Counted from the first letter of the stretch, positions 4,115 through 63,706 are shown. The stretch: 64,000 nucleotides of DNA from a virus (IMGVR_UViG_3300032280_000442:244575-308574); one strand, 5' to 3'. Translations and numbers: made by a program. Notes: generated by a model not told the origin, from the letters alone.

Positions 4115-5026
4115 ATGTTAATACTTACACACATTGGACTTCAACTACCTGAGTATTTGAATACGTTTTTAACACAAGTTAGAAAATTTAATAATAACTA
4201 TGATATCGTTTTTTTGGTTAACCAAGTTAATTGTGAAAACGAAATATTCAAAACACATAATGTTAAAACTTACCCAATTGAGGAATTAATTACCGATAGG
4301 GTTAATAATTTTATTAATAATTTTGGTTATGGTAACATTAATACTGTACACCAAAATATTCTTTATGGTGCCCCTGATTATTGGTGTGTTACCGCAGCAA
4401 GGTTGTTTTTTATTTATGAATATTGTTTAAGGAGCAATGTTAGTAAATTTTTTCATTTTGAAAATGACATTATGTTATACGAAAATTTAAATACTATTGA
4501 AAATTTAATTGTTAAAAATAGTTTGTATCATAATCAAATTTCTATAACAAGAGGTACTAACAATAAAATTATGACCGGATTTATGTATGTGGATACTTTA
4601 GAATCTTTTAATCATTTATTGACTGAAATAAATCACTACTTAGAATCTAAATTAGATTTATTTTCGTTTGGTATCGACCATTTAAATGAAATGGGATTAC
4701 TTCACATATATCAAGTAAACAACCCCGATAAATTAATTAATTTACCAATAGCCCCAAATAATAATTTAACAACAGATTTTGAATTTTATCAGTCCGTTTT
4801 TGACCCGGCCACATATGGTCAATTTCTTGATGGAACACCAGGGTCTCCGGGTGTTAGTCTAATACCGGATAGTATCATTGGGACCGAATTTAGTTATTCA
4901 AATATACCAATAACATTTGAAGTTATTGATAATTTAAGAATACCATTCGTGAGTTATAATAACAATAGATATAAAATAAATTCTTTACATATTCACTCAA
5001 AAAGATTAAACTTATTTCTAAGCTAA
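4115..5026 (+). CDS. Putative glycosyltransferase-like protein
   Basis: HFENDIMLY (DxD-like), FDPATYGQFL, LHIHSK; within glycan locus. Confidence 0.5.
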   Translation: MLILTHIGLQLPEYLNTFLTQVRKFNNNYDIVFLVNQVNCENEIFKTHNVKTYPIEELITDRVNNFINNFGYGNINTVHQNILYGAPDYWCVTAARLFFIYEYCLRSNVSKFFHFENDIMLYENLNTIENLIVKNSLYHNQISITRGTNNKIMTGFMYVDTLESFNHLLTEINHYLESKLDLFSFGIDHLNEMGLLHIYQVNNPDKLINLPIAPNNNLTTDFEFYQSVFDPATYGQFLDGTPGSPGVSLIPDSIIGTEFSYSNIPITFEVIDNLRIPFVSYNNNRYKINSLHIHSKRLNLFLS

Positions 5027-40929: not shown

Positions 40930-42975
40930 ATGATAGAATCTTTAGATGGTGGAAGTAATGGTGGTAATAAAGCAGTTAAGTCTGACTCATCAACACCCGT
41001 ATTAGACAATTTTAGTAGAGATTTAATTAAACTTGCCGAAGAGGGTAAACTTGACCCGGTAATTGGTAGAGAAAGAGAAATCACACGAATCGCCCAAATC
41101 CTTTCACGTAGAAAGAAAAATAACCCAATAATCATCGGAGAACCTGGTTGTGGTAAAACCGCAATCGTGGAAGGTCTTGCCATTATGATTTATAATGGGG
41201 AATGTCCAAGAAACTTAATGGACAAACGTATCGTATCCTTAGATATGACATCAATTGTTGCCGGAACCAAATATCGTGGACAATTTGAAGAAAGAATGAA
41301 AGTTATTATTGAAGAACTTCAAAACGAACCTAACATCATTGTATTCATTGATGAAATTCACACAATTGTTGGAGCAGGAAATTCATCAGGTTCAATGGAC
41401 GCATCAAACATCTTTAAACCAGCACTTGCTCGTGGAGAGATTCAATGTGTTGGTGCAACAACATTAGATGAATATAGAAAAAACTTTGAGAAAGACGGAG
41501 CATTAGAAAGACGTTTTCAAAAAGTTGTTGTGGACGCGGCAACCAAAGAAGAAACGTTAATCATTCTTAAAAACGTAAAAGATAAATACGAGAACTTCCA
41601 TAAGGTAACTTATACGGATGAAGTATTATCTGTGTGTGTTGATTTGGCCGACAGATACATCACCGATAGAGAATTCCCGGATAAAGGGTTTGACATCATC
41701 GATGAGGTTGGAGCAAGAAGTCAAGTTGAGATTAAAATGCCAGAATCTATCGAGAAGTTAAAACAACAAGCTGCCGACATCAAACAAGAAAAGGTAGATG
41801 TTGTTAAACAACAACGATATGAGGAGGCCGCAAATCTTCGTGATAAGGAAAAACGTGTCTTAGTTAAACTTGAAGCTGAAAAGAAAAAGTTTGAAGAAGA
41901 ACTTCTTACACACAAAAAAGAAATCACTTTAGATTTGGTTTATGAAGTGGTTTCCAATATGACCAAAATTCCGGTAACCAAATTAAACGCTGATGAAACT
42001 AAATTATTATCCGAGATGGAGGCAAACCTATCTGATAAAGTTATTGGACAATCTGAAGCCGTTTCAAAGATTGCAAAATCAATCCGTAGAAACAGAATTG
42101 GTATTAAGGACCCAAACAAACCAATCGGTTCATTCATCTTCTTAGGTTCAACAGGTGTTGGTAAAACATACTTGGCAAAACAACTAGCGAAACAAATGTT
42201 CGGTAGTGAAGATAATATGATTCGTGTGGATATGTCTGAGTACCAAGAAAAACACACCATTTCAAGATTAATTGGAGCACCTCCGGGATACGTTGGATAC
42301 GATGAAGGCGGACAATTAACCGAACAAGTTAAAAACAAACCTTATTCTGTAATTCTATTTGATGAGATTGAGAAAGCCAATAAAGATATTTTTGGTACTC
42401 TACTTCAAGTATTAGACGATGGTCACCTTACCGATGGTATGGGGAGAAAGATTAACTTCAAAAATTGTGTCATCATTATGACATCAAACGTGGGGGTTAA
42501 AAAATTACAGGATTTTGGTTCGGGTGTTGGATTCAAAACGGGTAATAGTTCTTACGCCGAAGAGGAATACAAACGTGAGACTCTTAAAAAAGAACTTAAA
42601 AAATTCTTTACACCGGAATTCTTAAACAGAATTGATGAGGTTGTTATCTTCAACTCTTTGGTTAAAGAAGATGTTACGAAAATTGTGACTTTGGAATTAG
42701 ATAAATTATCTAAAAGATTGGTTGGGTTAAAATACAACATCACATTTGATGAAACTATTTTAGAACTAATCTCGGAAGTTGGATTTGATGAGACCTACGG
42801 AGCTCGACCAATCAAAAGAGCAATTCAAGATAAGATTGAGGATTTTGTATCCGAAGAGATTATCAAAGGAAATATGGTGGAGGGTGTTCCATACACCCTT
42901 ATATCCGTAGAGAAAGAAGTGGTAGTTAAACCGGAAGAGGTAAAAAAGAGTAGAAAGAAAAAAGAGGACAAATAA
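40930..42975 (+). CDS. clpC: ClpC-like AAA+ unfoldase lacking the N-terminal domain
   Basis: Two Walker A motifs ([16 protein letters not shown]); UVR-like M domain [16 protein letters not shown]; VGF ClpP-docking loop. Confidence 0.88.
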
Positions 42976-43035: not shown

Positions 43036-43350
43036 ATGAAAAAATATTTTTTAATAGTATCTTGTGTTTTTTTATTATATATCACCACTAAAAAAGATAA
43101 AATATATTACATACCTTTTGACATTCCTGGTAGTCAAATGGCATCAACTATTCCTCCATTTGGGACATTTATTGAATCTAAATATAAGACCGATAAATCG
43201 ATATTAAGACACGAAATGGTTCATTGGTCACAATATCAAAGAATGGGTTTTTTTGGGTTTTACACAACTTACATAAAAGAATGTATTAAATATGGTAACA
43301 GATTTGATGGACCAATGGAAGTTGAAGCTAGAAAATTAAGTAAAATATAA
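43036..43350 (+). CDS. Small secreted/membrane zincin-like protein
   Basis: Hydrophobic N-terminus; ILRHEMVHWSQY; PMEVEA. Confidence 0.6.
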   Translation: MKKYFLIVSCVFLLYITTKKDKIYYIPFDIPGSQMASTIPPFGTFIESKYKTDKSILRHEMVHWSQYQRMGFFGFYTTYIKECIKYGNRFDGPMEVEARKLSKI

Positions 43351-46804: not shown

Positions 46805-47626
46805 TTAGAATAAATTTTTAAATTTTGGTTCTGATTTATATTGGTACTTTTTATTCCCCAAACTCTCAATCATCTGTTTACCGGTCTCTATCCCATTATA
46901 AACATCTTCAACAACCACATACTCGTTTCTTGTGTGATAGTCGTAATAACCTATCGCAAAATTAATACAGGCAAAATCAAACGTATTCTTCAATGCGTAA
47001 ACATCGGTATAAGGATTGGAGAAATATTCTTGTTCCCCCTTGAAACTCTCATTTAGCACTCCATTACAGGTTTCAAAGAACTCACTATCTCTTTCAAATA
47101 ATCTTGTTCCCATACAAACTTCTGTTACCATTCTATTACCGGGAGCATCAAACTGAATACCGTAACCAACATTTTCAAAGAAATTTGGGTCGGCTTTCTT
47201 GGACCCGTGACATCCGGTTTCTTCTGACACGAAGAATGCGGCTTTTAAATTTGGTAATTCTTTAAGTAATTCCAAACACGCATAAACACCACATTTGTCA
47301 TCACCACCAATTCCGGTTGGTTCATCAAAATCGTTGTACGCCTTTAAAGCCGGTTTAATTTCATACTGACTATTCTGTAACATTTCCTCACGAATATTGA
47401 TTGAGTCAATACTATGAACCGTATCGGTGTGAGCTATTACGCAAGGGAAGTAATCAACAAATTCATCGGTTTGTTTGATTGCGTAAATATTGTTATGTTC
47501 ATCCACATTGAATGGAATCCCATTTTCTTCTAACCACTCGATTAGAAATTCTACCATAAGGTCTTCTTGATAAGTTTTTGTCGGAATTGACAAAACTTCT
47601 TTTAATAATTCGTAATTTCTTTCCAT
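46805..47626 (-). CDS. M20/M28-family zinc peptidase
   Basis: IAHTDTV; GGDDKCG; SEETGC; GYYDYHT. Confidence 0.85.
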   Translation of the reverse strand: MERNYELLKEVLSIPTKTYQEDLMVEFLIEWLEENGIPFNVDEHNNIYAIKQTDEFVDYFPCVIAHTDTVHSIDSINIREEMLQNSQYEIKPALKAYNDFDEPTGIGGDDKCGVYACLELLKELPNLKAAFFVSEETGCHGSKKADPNFFENVGYGIQFDAPGNRMVTEVCMGTRLFERDSEFFETCNGVLNESFKGEQEYFSNPYTDVYALKNTFDFACINFAIGYYDYHTRNEYVVVEDVYNGIETGKQMIESLGNKKYQYKSEPKFKNLF

Positions 47627-47668: not shown

Positions 47669-49030
47669 TTAATTTATTCTAATAAACCCTTCAAATAACT
47701 CAGGTGAAACTAAAAAATTATTAAATTCTTCTTCAGTATAACTTCTTTCTTCCATTCCCGCACTACCATCTTTTTTAAACACCTGAATAAGTATTTTATT
47801 ATTTTTTGGGTTAATACCTCTGTAGAAAAATTCTCTTCCGGATTTAGTTTTGTATCGGTTATTTATTTTAAATTTAGAATCAAGTCGTTTGTATAATTCA
47901 CCGTACGCATAGATATCTTCATATTGAGATTCATCCTCAAGTTTATCAATAATTTTATCCAAATATCTCGAACATTCGGAATCAAACGATTCTTGGTCAA
48001 AATCCACAGCATCAATTTCATAGATAGAGTCACCCCAACCAGTAATCTCCATATCGGAACCAATTCTAAATAACAATTCACTTATGGTTAATGTTTTATC
48101 TCCCATTGTATCATATAGAGATAATAACATCCCAACACTCGTAAAATACTCTCTAAGACAATGTTTTGTAAAGATACCGTAATTATAAAATGGGTTACAA
48201 AAATCGTCTTTTATCATTTGGTTAAACCCTCTGGTTTTAGATTCATTTTGTTCTGAGGTATACTCGTAAATCATTGACTCTACCTCATTTCTAAACATAT
48301 CAATTAATTTTTGACCTGCTTCCGATTTTTGGTCATCTGTTTCTAACTCAACAGATTCAGGAGAAATAATTGAAAGAATTTGTTTTACCTTTTTAAGGTT
48401 TTCTTCGTTAAATTGATTAAAAAAATACCCTTCCTTAAAATCTTCGGTCGCCTGATAATCATCTTCCCACTCATACGTATCGTAGTTTCCGGTAATGGCG
48501 TTGTAATACCACATATCATCATCACTAGGGTTGAATAACTTAATATAGTCATCCTCATCAAACTTTAAATCTATTTTACTTTTGAACGGAGCTTTTGGTG
48601 TATATTTAAAATCGTAAATAGCGTCGTCAGCATTCTCTAACTCACGACTACTAACTTGTTCACCATTAGCAATTTTAGTTAATAACTTATAAATTTCACC
48701 TACACCAATAATATCGTCAACAACTAATTTAACCTCATCGGGAAATTCAACTAAAACATCCATTTTTGGACGAGCAGCACCATAGGCATTATAATATTCA
48801 ATCTTACCATCCTCTTTATGAATTGTATAAGTAACAAAACCATTTTTTAATTGGTTATTTTTATCTATAATAAAGTAAGTATCTCCCTCTCTAAATTGAT
48901 TCCAACTACCTTTAAATTTTTCCGGTGCGTAATACACAAAGGCATCGTAGTCCAATGGGTCCACAACCATCCAATCTTCATTGTCTAATAATATGTTTTT
49001 CATCCCGTGAAAGTTCTTTGTACCCGGCAT
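47669..49030 (-). CDS. Hypothetical acidic protein
   Basis: 453-aa ORF; TATTTATT upstream. Confidence 0.6.
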   Translation of the reverse strand: MPGTKNFHGMKNILLDNEDWMVVDPLDYDAFVYYAPEKFKGSWNQFREGDTYFIIDKNNQLKNGFVTYTIHKEDGKIEYYNAYGAARPKMDVLVEFPDEVKLVVDDIIGVGEIYKLLTKIANGEQVSSRELENADDAIYDFKYTPKAPFKSKIDLKFDEDDYIKLFNPSDDDMWYYNAITGNYDTYEWEDDYQATEDFKEGYFFNQFNEENLKKVKQILSIISPESVELETDDQKSEAGQKLIDMFRNEVESMIYEYTSEQNESKTRGFNQMIKDDFCNPFYNYGIFTKHCLREYFTSVGMLLSLYDTMGDKTLTISELLFRIGSDMEITGWGDSIYEIDAVDFDQESFDSECSRYLDKIIDKLEDESQYEDIYAYGELYKRLDSKFKINNRYKTKSGREFFYRGINPKNNKILIQVFKKDGSAGMEERSYTEEEFNNFLVSPELFEGFIRIN

Positions 49031-49062
49031 TGATATTTATTTTAATAATAAATATAATTTTA

Positions 49063-49093
49063 TTTGGATTTATCTAAAAATGTATTATCTTTG
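49063..49093 (+). promoter_or_regulatory. Bacteroidota-type sigma70 promoter of tmRNA
   Basis: TTTG (49063) - 19 nt - TATCTTTG (49086). Confidence 0.8.
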
Positions 49094-49110
49094 TGGTATC
49101 AAAATAATAA

Positions 49111-49507
49111 GGGGGTAAAATGGTATTGACTGGCATATCTACTTATTTGGGGCACGTAGTGAGAAGTTTCCTATCACTTAAATCTATGGATGACAAAATT
49201 ATAAATGGCAACATTTTAAACAAAATGGCTCTAGTAGGTCTTGTACGTCAAGACGAGCTTGTGAACGTAGCGTAAGCAAACACACATTGGGGTCGGTAGC
49301 CAAACAACCTAGCAACAGAAGGCTCTAAAAAGGTGTGGTACCTATCCGAAAAGGTACAAGTGGAGGATTAGTTCTCAGTAAACCGAACCACTCTAAAAAT
49401 AAGGGAATTGTGAAATTTCGGATTGTTAGCTCAAACAATGTCCTAAACGTGTAGTCCTGAACACTTAGGGTGAACAACACGAGGCTTCGAAGCCTCTACC
49501 TCCACCA
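49111..49507 (+). ncRNA. ssrA: tmRNA; predicted tag (A)GNILNKMALVGLVRQDELVNVA* at 49207-49275
   Basis: 5' GGGGGTAAAATGGTATTGAC; 3' GAGGC-TTCGAA-GCCTC-TACCTCC-A-CCA; G3:U acceptor pair; ATAAAT|GGC resume context; smpB adjacent. Confidence 0.93.
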
Positions 49508-49511
49508 AAAG

Positions 49512-49539
49512 AAAAACCCATCATACGATGGGTTTTTTT
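49512..49539. terminator. Intrinsic terminator after tmRNA
   Basis: AAAAACCCATC-ATAC-GATGGGTTTTTTT. Confidence 0.85.
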
Positions 49540-49540
49540 G

Positions 49541-49934
49541 TTATCAGTTCAAATGTTTATTTTTTAATCTTGTAATAAATCCTTTTTTACCGGATTTAAT
49601 TTATTTGTTAATTTATCTAATCTTGAGTCAACATTTCTGTATACGTCTCCAAACATTCTGTCAACATCATCCATTCTACCATTGAGGTATCTATTAGTTT
49701 CCGCATATAATTCGTCTGTTCTATTTATTTCATTATCAATACGACGATGAATATTATTGTCAATATCTCTAATTATTTCTTCTTGAGATTTAACCAATCT
49801 TTTTAATTTTTTGATGTCTGAATACATCCTAACCATAACTACAACCCCCAGTATCCCGAGAACCATAACCATACCTAAAAACATTCCTATAATCATAATT
49901 TCCATTTTTTAATTCGTTTATTTTGAACTGATAA
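49541..49934. repeat. 13-bp inverted repeat flanking ORF 49564..49905
   Basis: TTATCAGTTCAAA (49541-49553) / TTTGAACTGATAA (49922-49934). Confidence 0.8.
49564..49905 (-). CDS. Small membrane-anchored coiled-coil protein
   Basis: N-terminal hydrophobic helix MEIMIIGMFLGMVMVLGILGVVVMV. Confidence 0.65.
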   Translation of the reverse strand: MEIMIIGMFLGMVMVLGILGVVVMVRMYSDIKKLKRLVKSQEEIIRDIDNNIHRRIDNEINRTDELYAETNRYLNGRMDDVDRMFGDVYRNVDSRLDKLTNKLNPVKKDLLQD

Positions 49935-49956
49935 TTAAGTATAATAAAAAAAGGGA

Positions 49957-50394
49957 CTATTTCAAGTCCCTTTTCATATCTCTATCAATATCTCGAGATT
50001 TTATACTATCTCGTTTATCGTGGAGTTTCTTACCTTTGGCAAGAGCAATTTCCATCTTAACCAATCCGGTATCATTTATGAAGACACGATAAGGAATGAT
50101 GGTTGTCCCGTTGATTAACTCACTTTCCAACTTATTCAGTTCTTTTCTCTTGGCTAATAGTTTTCTATCCTTAACGGTTTCGTGGAATGAACCATAACCA
50201 TAATCGGAGATGTTCATACCCTTGATGAACAACTCACCATTATTAAAATAACAATATCCTTCAGATATGGAGACCTTCCCCTGACGGATGGACTTCACTT
50301 CTGAACCAACTAGTTGGATTCCCACAATTAGAGTTTCCAAGAATGAATATTCAAACTTGGCTTTCTTATTGACTATGTTAATTGATTTTTTCAT
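49957..50394 (-). CDS. smpB: SsrA-binding protein SmpB
   Basis: NKKAKFEY; GIQLVGSEVKSIR; RKLLAKRKE; LAKGKKLHDKR. Confidence 0.96.
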   Translation of the reverse strand: MKKSINIVNKKAKFEYSFLETLIVGIQLVGSEVKSIRQGKVSISEGYCYFNNGELFIKGMNISDYGYGSFHETVKDRKLLAKRKELNKLESELINGTTIIPYRVFINDTGLVKMEIALAKGKKLHDKRDSIKSRDIDRDMKRDLK

Positions 50395-50426
50395 ACGACA
50401 AAGATAATATAAAAATTGATATAAAC

Positions 50427-50460
50427 AAAAAAAGGTGTCACATTACTGTAACACCTTTTT
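50427..50460 (-). terminator. Intrinsic terminator of the large ncRNA
   Basis: Minus strand AAAAAGGTGTTAC-AGTAAT-GTGACACCTTTTTTT. Confidence 0.8.
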
Positions 50461-50464
50461 GGCT

Positions 50465-51305
50465 TAATACGATGAGAATACTCGTCTTAGTAAGAATCTT
50501 TAGAAGGATTATTGTTTCCCTTCGTTTCCACCACCTTTTGAGTGGTAATCCTCATTGCTAATTGGTTAGACCAATTACTCCTTAAGATAATAACTACTCT
50601 CTTACTACTCTACTCTCTTTAAACTTGCGGTCTAACTCAGGATTCGACTCCTTAGAGGTTTTTGGTAAAAATACGATTGAACTTGGGGTTCTTTCGTGCC
50701 ACGGACAGCCCGTGACTAAGGAAGCAACTTTCGTTATCACCTGACAAACACTTTTCCGTTTTTCTGTTAGTTTTTCACCTATTGAAAAGTTTGGTTTGTG
50801 TTGTGGATTTGTCCAAGTAGAGGTTTGTCTTAGGCTTCATCATCTTTTGGACGACGAAATACCAATCTACCCGGTAGAGACTCCCATCTCTCATATTTTA
50901 AGAATTCTTCGAATCAAAATCTTGGTAGATGTTTGATAAGGATAATGACAGCACCACCTGTTACTTATCTTGTCTTTCGACTTTAAGATTTCTCTCATAT
51001 TGGAACCCGTAATAATTAAGTTGGATAACCTAACTTCTTACTTGATTCCTATCACTTATTCCTATTGGAGTTCCCCCCTCAACCGAAAGACCCACATCTC
51101 CCGGTCACCCAACCACTTTCTCTAAAGCGTCGCCCTCAATACTGAAGGTCAGATGGTATGTGACTTGTATACTCGAGCTCCCTTTCAGAAGCCGCAGAAC
51201 CAATAACACTAATGATTCCACTTTATCCCGGTTTCCCGGTTTATTTAAGGATGATATACCACCCATTATCTTTTTTTACATCACCGAAGTGTGTAATGGA
51301 TAATC
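50465..51305 (-). ncRNA. Large (~840 nt) structured ncRNA, probably GOLLD family
   Basis: No ORF; own promoter and terminator; many GNRA/UUCG hairpins (CAC-TTCG-GTG, CCGG-GAAA-CCGG, GTC-GAAA-GAC, AAC-GAAA-GTT); size and tRNA-adjacent phage context match GOLLD; ends approximate. Confidence 0.65.
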
Positions 51306-51640: not shown

Positions 51641-51651
51641 ATAATCTATTG

Positions 51652-51741
51652 TGGTATCAGGTGGGTTCGAACCACCGGCACAGAGTCTTTCGTTACTCCT
51701 GCTCTACCAAAGGAGATAAATCTCCACTGAGCTATAATACC
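51652..51741 (-). tRNA. Aberrant tRNA-like RNA (extra hairpin in D loop, 8-nt anticodon loop, no assignable anticodon)
   Basis: GGTATTA/TGATACC acceptor; GCTC/GAGC D stem; GGTGG-TTCGAAC-CCACC T arm. Confidence 0.7.
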
Positions 51742-51751
51742 ATATAAGTTA

Positions 51752-51826
51752 GTGGACGTATGCTCTACCATCTGAGCTACAGCTTTTAATCACCGGAGGG
51801 ATTTGAATCCTCGACACAACGTCCAC
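51752..51826 (-). ncRNA. Circularly permuted tRNA-like RNA (YrlA-like topology)
   Basis: GTGGACGT-TGTGTC-GAGGA-TTCAAAT-CCCTC-CGGT..GCTG-TA-GCTC-AGATGGTA-GAGC-AT-ACGTCCAC. Confidence 0.7.
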
Positions 51827-51840
51827 CTATTTTTTCAATA

Positions 51841-53860: not shown

Positions 53861-54412
53861 TTATCTTAAATTACCAAAGTTTTTTAAGAATTGTTCCTTA
53901 GTTATTTGTAATTTTTGACCACTTTTAGTTCTAACCACCATTATTTCAGGTTTTTTAGGTGTGGATTCAACAATTTTTTTCTTTGGAAGTTCAGCAACTT
54001 TGGGTTTATGTGTTTCAACTATTTTAACTTTTGGTTCCTCAATAATTGGTTCTTCTTGTTGAAAAACCTCAACAGTTAATCTTGGTTTTTCTTCTTGTTC
54101 TTGTTCAGAAACAACCACATTAACTTTTTTGTTTGTTTTTACACCAAAGTCAGAACTCCAAGGCTCAAAATAGACATCGTCGGCAATGACCTCTAATCTC
54201 ATATTACCTTTTGTTCCTTCAGGTAAAAAATGTTTAGTTTTTGGGATATTTACTTCACACACTCCTGTATTTTCAATAGCACCATTAAACATATAAGACA
54301 TTTCATCTGTCTCAATTACTAATCTTACTTTAGATTTCGCTAAAGAAGTTCCTTCAATTTGTATATTACAATTGAATTTATTCGGTTTGTCTGTATATAA
54401 AAAGTAACTCAT
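53861..54412 (-). CDS. Hypothetical virion-associated protein
   Basis: RLEVIADDVYFEPW; TATTTATA upstream. Confidence 0.55.
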   Translation of the reverse strand: MSYFLYTDKPNKFNCNIQIEGTSLAKSKVRLVIETDEMSYMFNGAIENTGVCEVNIPKTKHFLPEGTKGNMRLEVIADDVYFEPWSSDFGVKTNKKVNVVVSEQEQEEKPRLTVEVFQQEEPIIEEPKVKIVETHKPKVAELPKKKIVESTPKKPEIMVVRTKSGQKLQITKEQFLKNFGNLR

Positions 54413-54426
54413 AACTTATAAATATC

Positions 54427-54753
54427 TTAATCTTTTATATTTGTCACATCAACTTTAATATTTTTCTGTTCTTTCATTAATACTTCCACATCTTTTAGCT
54501 TTACAGTGACTTTATTATTCTTAGTTTTATTAACTTTTGTTTCAAAAACAATCTCATCAACATCTAATCTTACAAATAATCCAATTAAGGTTGCAACTTC
54601 GTCTTGCCTTAATTCTTTCATTTTTTTACGAATTCTTGGACCAATACCCCCTGCAGCAATAATTTTCTGTATAACGCACCCTTCTTTCCACGTAAATGGT
54701 GTGTCCATCCACGCGAAAGGTGTATCATTCCAAGAGTAACAAATGCTTCCCAT
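54427..54753 (-). CDS. Hypothetical protein
   Basis: WNDTPFAWMDTPFTW repeat; divergent late motif. Confidence 0.55.
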   Translation of the reverse strand: MGSICYSWNDTPFAWMDTPFTWKEGCVIQKIIAAGGIGPRIRKKMKELRQDEVATLIGLFVRLDVDEIVFETKVNKTKNNKVTVKLKDVEVLMKEQKNIKVDVTNIKD

Positions 54754-58983: not shown

Positions 58984-60009
58984 TTACAACTTTTTGAATT
59001 CCGGTCTAATTAAATTCCATATAATTTCAGAATAATCTTTTTTATCAAACATTCTGAATAGAATCCCTGACATATGTTTAGGTTGAGTTGATACCCACTC
59101 AGCAAACTCTTTTCTATCAGTGATAGGTTCTTGGTCGTTATATTTCCCATACATTTTATAGTCAAACTTTTTACCAACATCTTCAGATATTTGAAAGTAA
59201 TAATATTTTAATTCTTTGATGTAGTTTTCAATTTTTTTGTAGAACTCATCCGGAACATCTTTTAATAGTTCCATAACATCCTCACCATTTTTCAAATACT
59301 CCCAAATACCGGTTGTGGTTACGTTGGTCATTATTTTATGAAGACGAAGATACTCCACCCCCTTAACTTTGATTCTATCTCCGTTGGAGAACTTCACTAC
59401 GAACCCTTCTTGGTCGTTTTTAACCATTTCTTTAAGTTGTTTGTAGTCTTTGATACCGTCATATTTTTTAACCACGTCAAACCCCCATTGTGACCAAATT
59501 GAGGAATCGGTTTCTTTTCCGTTCTTATCAAAGGTTCCCAATAAAACTAGTTTTTCATCAGTACCATAATCCAAAACAATTCTATTTTCCGGATAGATGA
59601 TTTCAAAGCAGAAAGTCAGATGTCTGAACATTATGTCAGTATTATATTTTCTTAAGATTTCTCTTGCTTTGTTTGCTTGGTCTGAGGTGAATGAACCACG
59701 AGTGGCAACCACCCATTGACCTCGATACCAAAATACGATACCCAATGAACCGTCCATTTTTTCATAAACCTCAAACTTTTCGGTTGGTTCAAATTTACCT
59801 TCTTCTATGTTGAAGAACTTTTGGAATGGAGTTGCAACTATATCTCCGGTGTCGTCGGTAACTAAACCTCTACACATAAGAGTCACCTCATCCCACAGGT
59901 TTTCGTACTGAACTTTTTCAGTATAATTCCATATGGTTAATGGAAGTGATGGATGTACTTGTTTGTAAAGTAATCCGTCTTCGTAATATTTGTTTAGTTT
60001 TTCTAACAT
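58984..60009 (-). CDS. RNA ligase (T4 Rnl1-like)
   Basis: KFFN; YEKMDGSLG (motif I); FEII; EGFVV; RIKVK. Confidence 0.9.
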   Translation of the reverse strand: MLEKLNKYYEDGLLYKQVHPSLPLTIWNYTEKVQYENLWDEVTLMCRGLVTDDTGDIVATPFQKFFNIEEGKFEPTEKFEVYEKMDGSLGIVFWYRGQWVVATRGSFTSDQANKAREILRKYNTDIMFRHLTFCFEIIYPENRIVLDYGTDEKLVLLGTFDKNGKETDSSIWSQWGFDVVKKYDGIKDYKQLKEMVKNDQEGFVVKFSNGDRIKVKGVEYLRLHKIMTNVTTTGIWEYLKNGEDVMELLKDVPDEFYKKIENYIKELKYYYFQISEDVGKKFDYKMYGKYNDQEPITDRKEFAEWVSTQPKHMSGILFRMFDKKDYSEIIWNLIRPEFKKL

Positions 60010-60019
60010 AATTTTTTAA

Positions 60020-60403
60020 TTAAAGTTTCATCTCGAAACGATTTTTCATTATTTCCAATTTATCTTCCGGAACCCCGTGTTCATTAACTCCTCCGTGTCT
60101 GTTTTCAACAATTAAAGAGTAAACTCTATATCCGTGTTTTTCAGCCAAGTCAAAGTATGGTTGCATTTCCCACTCTTGTGTAAATGTGTTTGACACCACA
60201 ACTTTTTTGTTTTTATTTTCCATAAAAACTCTTACAGCATTTTGACACCAATTGTGAGCATCTTTTAATTTGGTAACGTCAAATTCATACTTACCTTCAT
60301 AGGTAAAGTATTTATCCGCTTCCATATGCGACCCCCCTAATGATTCAGCCAACGTTGATTTACCACTTCCGGGTAATCCTCTTAATAAAAATAATTCTTT
60401 CAT
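60020..60403 (-). CDS. P-loop polynucleotide kinase-like protein
   Basis: LLRGLPGSGKST; EADKYF; VSNTF; HGVP. Confidence 0.8.
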   Translation of the reverse strand: MKELFLLRGLPGSGKSTLAESLGGSHMEADKYFTYEGKYEFDVTKLKDAHNWCQNAVRVFMENKNKKVVVSNTFTQEWEMQPYFDLAEKHGYRVYSLIVENRHGGVNEHGVPEDKLEIMKNRFEMKL

Positions 60404-60404
60404 A

Positions 60405-60608
60405 TTATTTAATGTATTGTCGTTTAAATTTTGTTTGTTTCTCGTTTAATATAATAATGTATTTTTTCCCGGATTTGGTTTTATAAACCTGAAATCTCAT
60501 CGTATCAATATAATGCCATTCATCAGTATATGAATGTTCATAGATTCTTTTTTCAACATTACAAGACACTAAACCAAAGAATAATAATAGTAAAATTAAT
60601 TTTTTCAT
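60405..60608 (-). CDS. Small lipoprotein
   Basis: MKKLILLLLFFGLVSC lipobox. Confidence 0.6.
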   Translation of the reverse strand: MKKLILLLLFFGLVSCNVEKRIYEHSYTDEWHYIDTMRFQVYKTKSGKKYIIILNEKQTKFKRQYIK

Positions 60609-60898
60609 TATACTTCACACTCTTTTAAATGTTTAACAATTTTTTCAATACCTTCAACGTCATCAGGATTGATAATAAACTCATCAAAGGCACCATATCT
60701 TGATTGATACCCAAAAATATATTTCAAACCATAACCAACTCTTTGCCAAAATGGTCGTTTAACCAAATGTGTGTGAATATAAACCATTGGATATGTTATT
60801 CCGTCAATTTCATCCTCAGAATACATTACCACCATTTGATGTTCCGTGTTATGACAGGAACACACAAATAAATCTTTTTTTGTTTGTTTAATTCTCAT
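60608..60898 (-). CDS. Hypothetical protein
   Basis: CSCHNTEH motif; coupled ORF. Confidence 0.6.
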   Translation of the reverse strand: MRIKQTKKDLFVCSCHNTEHQMVVMYSEDEIDGITYPMVYIHTHLVKRPFWQRVGYGLKYIFGYQSRYGAFDEFIINPDDVEGIEKIVKHLKECEV

Positions 60899-60899
60899 A

Positions 60900-61562
60900 T
60901 TACTTTCTTTTTTTACCGTCTTCAGTTATTACCTCATCTATGTGGTGGTCAAATAACATATCTGACACAATCTCACGTTTATCCATCATTCTTATGACAT
61001 CGTCCATATCATAAACACCAAAATTTGGATTACCATCAATCCCAACATCCATTTTTTTACCTTTACCAAATCTTAAATTTGTTGGAAGGTGTACGTGTCC
61101 GTGAAGGTGGATGTGACCTTTATTTAAACCATCCCACGACGCAATCGGGAAATGACATAACACAAATGTTTTGAATTTATAAGTTAATCTTGTGTAGTGA
61201 TTAACACTTGAGAATAATTCTTGAATGTTATCTCTATTTTTTTCAATATGTTCGTCGTGATTACCTAATATAAGGTGTATCTCTTTACACACAATTCTAT
61301 CTCTAAAAACTTTTATATTTTCAAAACCACCAAAACTCCAATCACCCAAGTGAATCAAAACATCGTCTTGACCAACAACACTATTAATGTTATTCACAAT
61401 AACTTCGTTCATTTGTTCAATCGTGTTGAAATCTCGGGTTTGGTCTATTGGAATACTCCCGTCAGGTAATCTCCACCCGGTTACACCACGACATATATTT
61501 TTATGTCCGTAGTGTGTGTCGGAGATTATCCATACCTTCCTATCTTTATCTATCTTAATCAT
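60900..61562 (-). CDS. Calcineurin-like metallophosphoesterase
   Basis: SDTH; HLGD; GNHD; HGHVH. Confidence 0.9.
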   Translation of the reverse strand: MIKIDKDRKVWIISDTHYGHKNICRGVTGWRLPDGSIPIDQTRDFNTIEQMNEVIVNNINSVVGQDDVLIHLGDWSFGGFENIKVFRDRIVCKEIHLILGNHDEHIEKNRDNIQELFSSVNHYTRLTYKFKTFVLCHFPIASWDGLNKGHIHLHGHVHLPTNLRFGKGKKMDVGIDGNPNFGVYDMDDVIRMMDKREIVSDMLFDHHIDEVITEDGKKRK

Positions 61563-62052
61563 ACTGCAAATCTAATTCTTTTTTTCCAAACCAAAATGGT
61601 TTTTCTCTGTTTTTCCAAGAAGCTAAATCACTTTTGGCTCCCATATAATAATTTCTATAAGATTCCACAACAGAATCTACCTTAAACTCATCCGGCATTG
61701 CTCTCGCCGGAGTAGTAAAACCAATGTCCGGAATGTTTGGTTTGTTTATAATACACCAATTAATCACATCTATTGATTTGTGTCTTTTACCATACCTGTA
61801 GGTATATTCTTTTCCAAGTTCCAACCCCAACTCACACAAATACAAATAGTTTGATAAACTCTCACGAGCCCAAATAGCACAAGGGTGATTCTTATGTGAT
61901 AACTTGTACGGTACTTGGTCGGTAGCTTGGTCGGTTACGTGGTGAACACCACATAACAACTGAGCCGTTTCCAAAATCATTTTAACTACGTGTTTATCTA
62001 CGTGGTATTTTGCCGACAACGTCGGATTCTCATCTAAGAAAAATATATTCAT
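61555..62052 (-). CDS. Pyrimidine-dimer DNA glycosylase-like protein
   Basis: MNIFFLD...HVDKHVVKMILETAQLL; HKNHPC; YRNYY. Confidence 0.75.
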   Translation of the reverse strand: MNIFFLDENPTLSAKYHVDKHVVKMILETAQLLCGVHHVTDQATDQVPYKLSHKNHPCAIWARESLSNYLYLCELGLELGKEYTYRYGKRHKSIDVINWCIINKPNIPDIGFTTPARAMPDEFKVDSVVESYRNYYMGAKSDLASWKNREKPFWFGKKELDLQYD

Positions 62053-62501
62053 TATACGTGTGGTATTTGGACTCTAACACAAGTTTGTGCTTGACCCTCG
62101 TTCATATAAAAATTGTTTAAATATCCCATTATGTTTGCACTACCAATTGGATTTGCTGAATGAACATATACAATTGGAAACACAAATTTATCCGCCTTTC
62201 TCTCACTTCTACTCATATTGAATCTACCCTCATTTGTATTGTGAAATAAAGCAACCAAGAACTTAGCTGCGTCATATCCGGTTTTTTCTTCAATATTGTT
62301 GTAATCCAAAGTATAATTTGGAGAAACATTATCGAAGTATTCTTTCATTGCAGTATCACCCAAATCGTGGTCCAATGATATAATATCAATTTTACCCAAC
62401 CCAACTTCATTAACTTTACTAACGAATTCATCATAATTTCTTACAACAATCCAATTATCTCCGATTGGAGTTCTTACGTCATCTAAATAAATTCTACACA
62501 T
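62052..62501 (-). CDS. Cyclic-phosphate-processing receiver-like domain protein
   Basis: IYLDDVR; ISLDHDLG; TGYD; VHSANPIG; start 62501 lies downstream of TATCTTTG promoter at 62519-26. Confidence 0.75.
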   Translation of the reverse strand: MCRIYLDDVRTPIGDNWIVVRNYDEFVSKVNEVGLGKIDIISLDHDLGDTAMKEYFDNVSPNYTLDYNNIEEKTGYDAAKFLVALFHNTNEGRFNMSRSERKADKFVFPIVYVHSANPIGSANIMGYLNNFYMNEGQAQTCVRVQIPHV

Positions 62502-62603
62502 ACCTATTAATTTTGATACAAAGATAGTCAAATTTTTAATATAAAAAAATCCATCACGAAAAAATGATGGATTTAATTTGAAACCTTGTTATTAGTTTAT
62601 TTT

Positions 62604-63633: not shown

Positions 63634-63706
63634 TGGTCCCGGAGAATTACGATATCCCGACTTCTACATTATGAGTGTAGCACTCTGACCTCTGAGTTAC
63701 GAGACC
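63634..63706 (-). tRNA. tRNA with CAT anticodon (elongator Met or Ile2), atypical T loop, CCA not encoded
   Basis: GGTCTCG/CGGGACC; ACTC/GAGT; CTACA-CTCATAA-TGTAG; T loop ATCGTAA. Confidence 0.8.

What the first reader, a model, noticed from the sequence alone, without database searches (positions are those of the whole stretch)
49111..50394. Phage trans-translation pair (tmRNA + SmpB) with an unusually long, non-canonical tag
Seen: a full tmRNA and a convergent smpB. The reading frame after ATAAAT is GNILNKMALVGLVRQDELVNVA*, 22 codons ending -NVA, and the T loop has 6 nt. Known: bacterial tags are usually about 10 residues ending -LAA/-AA for ClpX recognition. Inference: the phage rescues ribosomes stalled by host RNases while routing products differently, either escaping ClpXP or addressing the phage ClpC.
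Basis: partly seen in the sequence, partly recalled or inferred. Interest (0 to 1): 0.75.

Follow-up and report, generated by a model that had tools for sequence, protein, structure and literature searches.

The report
Phage tmRNA-SmpB pair, long tag
A 308-kb uncultured freshwater phage that probably infects Bacteroidota carries its own ribosome-rescue kit (tmRNA plus SmpB) whose 22-residue tag is conserved in dozens of related phages and is twice as long as the tags of the likely host phylum; it is a solid new variant of a known system, and what the tag does remains untested.

Summary
Window 49111-49507 (+) is a divergent one-piece tmRNA. ARAGORN misses it and Rfam RF00023 gives 45.6 bits against a cut-off of 47. 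About 45 related phage copies support its helices by covariation, and G3:U70 is invariant in the 24 aligned copies. SmpB (49957-50394, -) is intact and convergent.

The resume codon GGC at 49207 gives GNILNKMALVGLVRQDELVNVA*. ARAGORN calls the same resume codon in two relatives. The tag shows amino-acid-level selection (pS 0.52, pN 0.25). In 17 of 24 copies the frame has no start codon, so only trans-translation can reach it.

The 6-nt T loop is real and recurs on five different covarying stems. All 33 sampled host-phylum tags are 8-10 residues ending in -AA.

- "Escaping ClpXP" is weak, because -LVA endings are strong ClpXP degrons in E. coli.
- "Addressing phage ClpC" is circumstantial. An N-domain-less ClpC with a VGF loop lies 2.3-6.4 kb from the tmRNA in 25 of 26 records, and the phage also encodes ClpP.

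Phage tmRNA and SmpB genes are already published (Al-Shayeb 2020). This scan has reported the same kind of long-tag phage tmRNA on other DNA (e1-5343247, e1-3668657, e1-5410262). Verdict: a new variant of a known kind, of moderate interest.

The parts
49063..49093 (+). Bacteroidota-type promoter motif TTTG-N19-TAtcTTTG, 18 nt upstream of the mature tmRNA 5' end
   Evidence: the pattern occurs 8 times in the window against 3.06 expected, and 1 of 100 shuffles reached 8. The same motif sits before smpB, clpC and the RNA cluster. That this is the Bacteroidetes consensus is from general knowledge.
49111..49507 (+). One-piece tmRNA (ssrA) gene, 397 nt including the encoded CCA
   Evidence: RF00023 at 45.6 bits, model 1-374; covariation across 24 distinct relatives; relatives score 48-84.5 bits, above the cut-off.
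49111..49117 (+). Acceptor stem 5' strand GGGGGUA. It pairs with 49497-49503 (UACCUCC). G3:U70 is the alanine identity pair.
   Evidence: the G-U pair is present in 24 of 24 copies, and 4 of the 7 stem pairs show compensatory changes.
49158..49193 (+). Pseudoknot PK1: stem 1 AGUGA/UCACU and stem 2 GUUUCC/GGAUGA
   Evidence: helices 4 and 5: stem 1 is 99% paired, and stem 2 has 5 of 6 pairs with changes on both sides.
49207..49275 (+). Tag reading frame: resume codon GGC, 22 codons (GNILNKMALVGLVRQDELVNVA), then stop UAA
   Evidence: One search gives the Rfam register. ARAGORN calls the homologous resume codon in L033 and L046; the frame is conserved, with pS 0.52 and pN 0.25; in 17 of 24 copies there is no start codon upstream in frame.
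49290..49368 (+). Pseudoknots PK2 (49290-49324) and PK3 (49338-49368)
   Evidence: helices 7-10: PK2 is 97-100% paired and all 4 pairs of its stem 2 are compensatory. PK3 is 76% paired; some sublineages have replaced this module.
49481..49496 (+). T arm GAGGC-UUCGAA-GCCUC, with a 6-nt loop and a perfect 16-nt palindrome
   Evidence: the same 6-nt loop occurs on five different covarying stems, while other members have a 7-nt UUCGAnU loop. RNAfold prefers 6 bp plus a UCGA tetraloop (-7.9 against -6.8 kcal/mol).
49512..49537 (.). Hairpin followed by a U-run directly after the CCA, likely a bidirectional terminator shared with the minus-strand ORF
   Evidence: One search lists it on the minus strand. 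On the plus strand the T-run is read from the sequence.
49564..49905 (-). 113-aa ORF between smpB and the tmRNA, with an N-terminal hydrophobic helix and a coiled coil. It is not shown to belong to the system.
   Evidence: One search lists it. One search gives only sub-threshold DUF4446 and DUF948 matches. Homologous ORFs occur in L007 and L012.
49957..50394 (-). smpB, 145 aa, with the basic C-terminal tail including D-K-R
   Evidence: PF01668 at 161.5 bits. TIGR00086 at 155.7 against a cut-off of 119.1; aligned end to end with solved SmpB structures (7ljp at 1.2e-33).
50399..50429 (-). Bacteroidota-type promoter motif directly upstream of smpB
   Evidence: A terminator-like hairpin at 50429-50460 (-) closes the GOLLD unit just before it.
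40930..42975 (+). Phage ClpC-like double-AAA+ unfoldase, 681 aa, without an N domain and with a VGF ClpP-docking loop. It is a candidate reader of the tag; this link is inferred only.
   Evidence: Searches give the domains; best PDB matches are S. aureus and B. subtilis ClpC, and GVGF aligns with YVGF; it lies 2.3-6.4 kb from the tmRNA in 25 of 26 records. ClpP is at G000 53966-54700.

Best explanation
The locus is a working phage-encoded trans-translation module.

Inferred mechanism: a host-type promoter transcribes a 397-nt one-piece tmRNA. RNase P and the encoded CCA give its mature ends. G3:U70 lets the host alanyl-tRNA synthetase charge it. The phage's own SmpB, expressed from its own promoter on the other strand, carries it into ribosomes stalled on broken mRNA. 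Translation resumes at GGC 49207 and adds Ala plus a 22-residue peptide.

Shown: the peptide is under amino-acid-level selection across a clade of large freshwater phages, with invariant G1, K6, G11, L12 and a terminal A, and R or K at position 14.

Inferred: the aliphatic-x-V-A carboxyl end makes the tag a Clp-type degradation signal. The conserved extra 12 or so residues add a second recognition element for an adaptor or a second unfoldase. The phage's own N-domain-less ClpC with ClpP is the most obvious candidate. The RNA-repair genes nearby suggest the module serves to keep ribosomes running when host nucleases cut RNA during infection.
For: RNA identity:
- Full-length RF00023 match; relatives score 48-84.5 bits.
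- 90.2% of 1145 pair cells are paired, 26 pairs are compensatory, 0 of 500 shuffles reach this, and slid controls give 30-53%.
- G3:U70 is present in 24 of 24 copies.

Tag:
- The same frame is found in 24 aligned copies and in further members from a motif scan.
- ARAGORN independently calls it in L033 and L046.
- There are 16 distinct nucleotide versions with pS 0.52 and pN 0.25, and Arg is kept across CGU, CGC and AGA codons.
- In 17 of 24 copies the frame is closed upstream and has no start codon.

SmpB: it passes equivalog cut-offs and keeps its tail.

Expression signals: Bacteroidota-type promoters and terminators flank both genes.

Host phylum: the best bacterial SmpB relatives are all Bacteroidota at 50-61% identity, and their tags also start with G.

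Degron reading:
- -LVA endings are strong ClpXP degrons (PMC10862746).
- A long tag retargeted to another protease has a precedent in Mycoplasma and Lon (PMC8403727).

Phage protease: ClpC with a VGF loop plus ClpP, and conserved ClpC-tmRNA proximity even where smpB has moved about 195 kb away, in G014.

Context: RNA-repair genes nearby.
Against: - There is no expression, aminoacylation or tagging data.
- The window's copy scores below Rfam's cut-off and ARAGORN misses it.
- Its T arm has a 6-nt loop and may fold as a 6-bp stem with a tetraloop instead of a T loop, which could impair EF-Tu, SmpB or modification-enzyme recognition.
- The window's tag ends N-V-A, not aliphatic-V-A, so ClpX recognition is not assured.
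- ClpC-tmRNA proximity may be plain synteny within one phage clade.
- No SspB-like adaptor, Lon or S41 protease was found in the phage.
Confidence: 0.8

Rival explanations
1. Orthogonal circuit: the tag is read specifically by the phage's own ClpC-ClpP and poorly by host ClpXP/SspB. The phage would then control the fate of truncated proteins independently of the host, for example to recycle amino acids.
For: - The phage encodes ClpP and a ClpC-like unfoldase with a VGF docking loop but no adaptor-binding N domain.
- ClpC lies 2.3-6.4 kb from the tmRNA in 25 of 26 records, including small fragments and G014, where smpB is elsewhere.
- The tag lacks the N-Y-A-L-A-A core of host tags.
Against: - This is linkage only, within one related clade.
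- ClpP is about 230 kb away from the tmRNA.
- The -V-A endings resemble good ClpXP degrons.
- The distant member L251, with a 36-residue tag, shows no ClpC on its 46-kb fragment.
Confidence: 0.27
2. Rescue without degradation: the pair only frees ribosomes, and the conserved peptide serves another purpose such as solubility, localisation or sequestration of truncated products.
For: - The conserved G-L-[IV]-R core and the N-terminal G-N-[VI]-L-x-K-M have no counterpart in known degrons.
- The tags are more hydrophobic than host tags and lack aromatic residues.
Against: - The terminal A and the preceding aliphatic residues are conserved as in ssrA-like degrons.
- The degron role is the rule for tmRNA tags, by general knowledge and PMC9601184.
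Confidence: 0.13
3. Decaying or non-functional copy: a captured tmRNA gene, or a remnant of an integration site, that is no longer charged. The 6-nt T loop would be the sign of decay.
For: - The Rfam score is below the cut-off and ARAGORN misses it.
- The T arm may not form a T loop.
- The 3' ends are mosaic between near-identical copies.
Against: - The 6-nt loop sits on five different fully complementary stems.
- All other helices covary.
- The tag frame is intact and under selection.
- The gene is full length and has its own promoter, terminator and partner SmpB.
Confidence: 0.06
4. An ordinary 51-codon protein gene (49120-49275) rather than a tmRNA tag.
For: The window has an ATG at 49120 in frame with the tag.
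Against: In 17 of 24 relatives the frame upstream of the resume codon holds stop codons and no start codon. The upstream part is conserved as paired RNA, not as protein.
Confidence: 0.01

Closest known systems
tmRNA and SmpB genes of huge phages (Al-Shayeb et al. 2020, Nature 578:425, PMC7162821)
   Same: Large uncultured phages that carry both tmRNA and SmpB among other translation genes. SmpB homologues occur in 68 deposited phage records, including the Lak megaphages and the 735-kb phage.
   Different: That paper does not describe the tags. No deposited phage SmpB exceeds 60% identity, and no deposited phage matches this tmRNA by blastn. That survey used ARAGORN, which misses this copy and most of its family.
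Bacteroidota one-piece tmRNA (Rfam RF00023)
   Same: One-piece architecture, a G-N-type resume codon (GGN), G3:U70, PK1-PK3, and a Bacteroidota-type promoter. The SmpB is closest to Bacteroidota proteins.
   Different: Host-phylum tmRNAs score 105-198 bits against 45-85 for the phage family. Host tags are 8-10 residues ending -[LM]AA in 33 of 33 samples, while the phage tag is 21-22 residues ending -VA or -TA. Part of the phage family has a 6-nt T loop.
Mycoplasma long ssrA tag read by Lon (Gur and Sauer 2008, cited through PMC8403727)
   Same: An unusually long tag (27 residues), enriched in hydrophobic residues, that evolved together with a change of protease.
   Different: No Lon gene is present in the phage. 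The phage tags have no aromatic residues. The protease that reads the phage tag is unknown.
E. coli ssrA-like C-terminal degrons ending -LVA (PMC10862746)
   Same: The carboxyl end is aliphatic-V-A; many family members end -VVA.
   Different: The window's copy ends -NVA. Recognition by a Bacteroidota ClpX has not been tested.
Earlier findings of this scan on other DNA (e1-5343247, e1-3668657, e1-5410262)
   Same: Freshwater phage tmRNA-SmpB pairs with conserved tags of 21, about 25 and 35 residues. I saw the likely counterparts as the 21-residue subfamily, L179 (25 residues ending -AYAA) and L251 (36 residues).
   Different: New here: the recurrent 6-nt T loop, the conserved proximity of an N-domain-less ClpC, the upstream-stop test of the frame, and the literature check on -VA endings.

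Membership tests
tmRNA (SsrA, Rfam RF00023, one-piece) | Score at or above the curated Rfam gathering score (47 bits) | tested here: not met
   The window copy scores 45.6 bits with full model coverage. 14 related phage copies score 48.1-84.5 bits.
tmRNA (SsrA, Rfam RF00023, one-piece) | tRNA-like acceptor stem with a G3:U70 pair, discriminator A and a 3' CCA | tested here: met
   The G-U pair is present in 24 of 24 copies and 4 of the 7 stem pairs are compensatory. The CCA is encoded at 49505-49507.
tmRNA (SsrA, Rfam RF00023, one-piece) | T arm with a 7-nt T loop | tested here: inconclusive
   The stem is present and covaries, but the loop is 6 nt (UUCGAA) in the window and in five stem variants. 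Other members have 7 nt. Thermodynamics favour a tetraloop fold.
tmRNA (SsrA, Rfam RF00023, one-piece) | Pseudoknot PK1 just upstream of the resume codon, and further pseudoknots downstream of the frame | tested here: met
   PK1, PK2 and PK3 are supported by covariation. PK4 was not modelled.
tmRNA (SsrA, Rfam RF00023, one-piece) | Internal open frame without a start codon, beginning at a conserved resume codon and ending in a stop | tested here: met
tmRNA (SsrA, Rfam RF00023, one-piece) | Charged with alanine and adds the tag to stalled peptides | not testable with these tools
   This needs biochemistry or mass spectrometry.
SmpB (PF01668 / TIGR00086) | Full-length match above the curated cut-offs | tested here: met
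   PF01668 at 161.5 bits against a cut-off of 27. TIGR00086 at 155.7 against 119.1. NF003843 at 157.3 against 130.
SmpB (PF01668 / TIGR00086) | Basic C-terminal tail with the D-K-R motif | tested here: met
   The alignment to 7ljp and 5zey runs through ...GKKLHDKRDSIKSRD.... The role of this motif is from general knowledge.
Canonical ssrA degron for ClpXP | Tag ends in a di-alanine (-AA) | tested here: not met
   The tag ends -VA, or -TA in one subfamily. The di-alanine rule is stated in PMC9601184.
ClpC-type unfoldase (candidate reader of the tag) | Two AAA+ modules and a D2-small domain | tested here: met
   AAA, AAA_lid_9, AAA_2 and ClpB_D2-small.
ClpC-type unfoldase (candidate reader of the tag) | ClpP-docking tripeptide loop (VGF) | tested here: met
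   GVGF aligns with YVGF of B. subtilis ClpC and FAGF of S. aureus ClpC.
ClpC-type unfoldase (candidate reader of the tag) | N-terminal Clp_N adaptor-binding domain | tested here: not met
   There is no Clp_N match. The protein starts about 25 residues before the first AAA+ module. NCBIfam ClpA and ClpB equivalog cut-offs are not reached.

The most novel reading that the evidence does not exclude
The conserved long tag is an address for the phage's own N-domain-less ClpC-ClpP protease. Together with the phage tmRNA and SmpB this would make a self-contained, host-independent tagging-and-degradation circuit, kept as one gene neighbourhood across a clade of jumbo phages. It would be deployed with RNA-repair enzymes against host RNA-cutting defences.
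Probability: 0.25. Interest if true: 0.7.

Novelty: new variant of a known kind. Interest (0 to 1): 0.42.

Why it matters
Phage tmRNA genes are usually listed in gene inventories and not examined further.

This locus shows that a whole clade of large freshwater phages keeps a tag under selection that differs from every sampled host-phylum tag. So the phage probably cares about the fate of the tagged proteins, and not only about freeing ribosomes.

If the tag is read by the phage's own ClpC-ClpP, it would be the first virus-encoded orthogonal protein-tagging and degradation pathway.

There is also a practical point. ARAGORN and the Rfam cut-off miss this copy and most of its family, so surveys of phage tmRNAs undercount them.

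The recurrent 6-nt T loop, if functional, would widen what is accepted as a tRNA-like domain.

Tried and rejected
- ARAGORN on the window found no tmRNA. It found the family in only 2 of about 25 loci tested.
- Rfam in gathering mode did not list the tmRNA.
- blastn of the locus against deposited phages matched only the GOLLD part.
- A covariance model of the family was not built, because the alignment has 432 columns and the limit is 400. I used nhmmer instead.
- No SspB, Lon_C or Peptidase_S41 was found in the phage genome.
- No phage ORF of 80 residues or more ends in a tag-like C terminus or has a G-[LIV]-[LIV]-R motif near its end.
- The idea that the tag holds a prohead-protease site [ILV]-x-E was dropped, because the motif is not conserved across tag variants.
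- Complex prediction was not used: the tag is shorter than the 30 residues the tool needs, and SmpB with tmRNA is a textbook pair.
- The 15-mer scan of viral contigs gave mostly chance matches. Only 16 of 80 loci held tmRNA-like sequence.
- The downstream GIY-YIG-like gene is not tied to the T-arm type: L012 has the same T arm as L007 but no such gene.

Full report
**Setting.** The window is the last 64 kb (244575-308574) of a 308,574-bp IMG/VR virus record with direct terminal repeats, rated 100% complete. Its G+C content is 31.5%. It is a jumbo phage.

**Check of the observation.** ARAGORN reports no tmRNA in the window, and Rfam at gathering thresholds does not list one. A permissive Rfam scan of 49000-49650 gives a full-length RF00023 match (model 1-374) at 49111-49507 (+). 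The score is 45.6 bits against a gathering score of 47, with E 7e-17. The sequence shows the following:
- an acceptor stem GGGGGUA/UACCUCC with G3:U70;
- a discriminator A and an encoded CCA;

Rfam aligns the consensus resume codon with GGC at 49207, just after AUAAAU. The frame reads GNILNKMALVGLVRQDELVNVA and stops at UAA 49273-49275. The minus-strand ORF 49957-50394 is SmpB: PF01668 at 1.6e-47, and TIGR00086 and NF003843 above their equivalog cut-offs. It aligns end to end with solved SmpB structures, including the basic tail with D-K-R. The two genes are convergent, and a 113-aa membrane or coiled-coil ORF lies between them.

**Is it a real, conserved RNA?** Searching viral contigs with SmpB returned 79 loci. 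An nhmmer profile finds the same tmRNA next to smpB in 40 of them. I aligned 24 distinct copies (A1). I then scored a hand-drawn structure covering the acceptor stem, upper P2, both PK1 stems, helix 5, PK2 and PK3:
- 90.2% of 1145 cells are paired;
- 26 of 48 pairs show changes on both sides;
- no shuffle out of 500 reaches these values;
- versions with the 3' partner slid by 1-3 columns give only 30-53% pairing;
- G3:U70 is present in all 24 copies.

Rfam scores 14 relatives above its cut-off, at 48.1-84.5 bits. The lowest scores belong to copies with the 6-nt T loop. That explains why the window's copy falls just short and why ARAGORN misses it.

**The tag.**
- All aligned copies keep an open frame of 21 or 22 codons from the same GGN codon, preceded by UA[AG]A[CU].
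- ARAGORN, run on the relatives, recognises two of them and calls exactly this resume codon and frame: L033 gives GNILDKMSAIGLIRAEEVVVA and L046 gives GNVLDKMETLGLVRESEVTVA.
- The 16 distinct nucleotide versions give a mean pS of 0.52 against pN of 0.25. Variable sites number 16, 10 and 20 at codon positions 1, 2 and 3. Gly, Leu and Arg are kept through synonymous and even codon-family changes (CGU, CGC, AGA).
- The pattern is G-[NE]-x-[LI]-x-K-[ML]-x-x-[VIL]-G-L-[VIL]-[RK]-x-x-x-x-V-x-[VT]-A. Further members found with a 15-mer scan fit it; one has K at position 14.
- In 17 of 24 copies the frame upstream of the resume codon holds stops and no start codon. The peptide can therefore be made only by trans-translation, and the 51-codon ORF in the window (49120-49275) is an accident.

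**Host and host tags.** The best bacterial relatives of the phage SmpB are all Bacteroidota (Sphingobacteriales, Cytophagales, Chitinophagales, Flavobacteriales) at 50-61% identity. The motif TTTG-N19-TAnnTTTG is, from general knowledge, the Bacteroidetes promoter consensus. It occurs 8 times in the window against 3.06 expected, and sits directly before the tmRNA, smpB, clpC and the neighbouring RNA cluster. Three tmRNAs from genomes holding the closest SmpB relatives, plus 30 sampled across that phylum, all encode tags of 8-10 residues ending -[LM]AA. Those tmRNAs score 105-198 bits. The phage tag shares the leading G-[NE] with some host tags but is otherwise different and twice as long.

**The T loop.** The 6-nt loop UUCGAA occurs on five different, fully complementary stems: GAGGC/GCCUC, UCGGC/GCCGA, CCGAC/GUCGG, GCGAU/AUCGC and CCGAU/AUCGG. 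Sister copies have a normal 7-nt UUCGAnU loop. The variant is therefore maintained and is not decay. Each such T arm is a perfect palindrome, and RNAfold prefers a 6-bp stem with a UCGA tetraloop (-7.9 against -6.8 kcal/mol). Whether it forms a true T loop is open. Near-identical tmRNAs (L040 and L041, L044 and L047) differ mainly in this arm, which points to segment exchange at the 3' end.

**What reads the tag?** The phage encodes a bona fide ClpP at G000 53966-54700. It also encodes a 681-aa double-AAA+ unfoldase at window 40930-42975. That protein has no Clp_N domain. Its D2 region is closest to S. aureus and B. subtilis ClpC, and its GVGF aligns with the YVGF ClpP-docking loop. No Lon, SspB or S41 protease was found.

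Across 30 related records, ClpC is found in 25 of the 26 that hold the tmRNA family. Where I worked out both positions it lies 2.3-6.4 kb from the tmRNA, including on fragments of 11-40 kb. This holds in G014 too, where smpB sits about 195 kb away. This is suggestive but could be plain synteny.

In an E. coli screen of C-terminal pentapeptides the top ClpXP-dependent degron was FKLVA, and -LVA is a known ClpX signal (PMC10862746). Many family members end -VVA. Long tags also have precedent: Mycoplasma pneumoniae has a 27-residue tag thought to be adapted to Lon (PMC8403727). SsrA tags usually end in a di-alanine (PMC9601184), and this family does not.

**Context.**
- smpB follows a GOLLD RNA (50469-50874, 307.7 bits), tRNA-like RNAs and a weak Y-RNA-like match.
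- Further on lie a T4 Rnl1-type RNA ligase, a P-loop kinase, a metallophosphoesterase and a cyclic-phosphate-processing receiver domain.

**Comparison with what is known.** tmRNA and SmpB in huge phages are published (PMC7162821). About 2% of isolate phages carry tmRNA genes (PMC9004378). SmpB homologues occur in 68 deposited phage records, all below 60% identity to this one. This scan has already reported long-tag phage tmRNA-SmpB pairs on other DNA (e1-5343247, e1-3668657, e1-5410262). I saw more distant relatives with 25- and 36-residue tags (L179 and L251).

**Verdict.** This is a real, conserved phage trans-translation pair with a lineage-specific long tag, so a new variant of a known kind. 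The parts that are new here are:
- the recurrent 6-nt T loop;
- the test showing that only trans-translation can reach the frame;
- the conserved neighbourhood with an N-domain-less ClpC.

The fate of tagged proteins remains inferred.

Noticed in passing
window 50469-50874 (-); also L025 2259-2669, L026 2519-2926, L042 1377-1783: A GOLLD RNA (Rfam RF02032, 282-308 bits) lies directly upstream of smpB in the window and in three relatives, so GOLLD-smpB adjacency is conserved. Six held papers mention both GOLLD and tmRNA. I did not read them, so I cannot say whether the link has been reported.
   Followed up: partly
window 51733-51839 (-); L025 1431-1527, L026 1517-1615, L042 271-375: Weak but recurrent matches to the Y-RNA-like family YrlA (30-40 bits, cut-off 69). 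In the window the match overlaps the stretch another note calls a permuted tRNA-like RNA.
   Followed up: partly
window 51651-51741 (-) and relatives (e.g. L016 891-984, L026 718-805): Oversized tRNA-like genes of about 88-94 nt. ARAGORN calls them tRNA-Thr(GGU) or tRNA-Pro(UGG), or gives 2- or 4-base anticodons. They are unlikely to be ordinary decoders.
   Followed up: no
window 58984-62531 (-): An RNA-repair set: T4 Rnl1-type RNA ligase (58984-60009), AAA_33 kinase (60020-60403), metallophosphoesterase (60900-61562) and a cREC_REC cyclic-phosphate-processing domain (62052-62531).
   Followed up: partly
L007 3636-4466 (-), directly 3' of its tmRNA (4524-4917): A 276-aa ORF with a GIY-YIG-like N terminus (sub-threshold Pfam match at 17 bits) and a C-terminal HTH. 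Near-identical tmRNAs (L040 and L041, L044 and L047) also have T arms that differ. Together these suggest homing-linked exchange of the tmRNA 3' end.
   Followed up: partly
L179 3617-3997 (G019) and L251 728-1138: More distant phage tmRNAs have even longer tags. L179 has 25 residues (GKKSVWDVINAFGTPVAEVELAYAA, with a canonical -AA end). L251 has 36 residues ending ...NLLGAIKGTEAELALS, which echoes the G-x-[IV]-[KR] core of this family.
   Followed up: partly
window 43036-43350 (+) and 46805-47626 (-): Between clpC and the tmRNA lie a 104-aa ORF with an HEMVH (HExxH) motif and no Pfam match, and a sub-threshold M20/M28/M42-like peptidase. There are thus several peptidase-like genes near the rescue module.
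   Followed up: no
L012 3464-3844 and 4300-4920; L007 2723-3115: The gap between smpB and the tmRNA is variable in relatives and holds different cargo genes: a SET-domain protein, a methyltransferase and an annexin-repeat-like protein.
   Followed up: no
G017:C1:213156-213662 (-): A second, partial clpC copy (residues 509-678, 86% identity) with an internal TAA stop lies 2.4 kb from the intact clpC of that phage.
   Followed up: no
window 63634-63706 (-): A tRNA with anticodon CAU is found by Rfam (49.5 bits) but not by ARAGORN.
   Followed up: no
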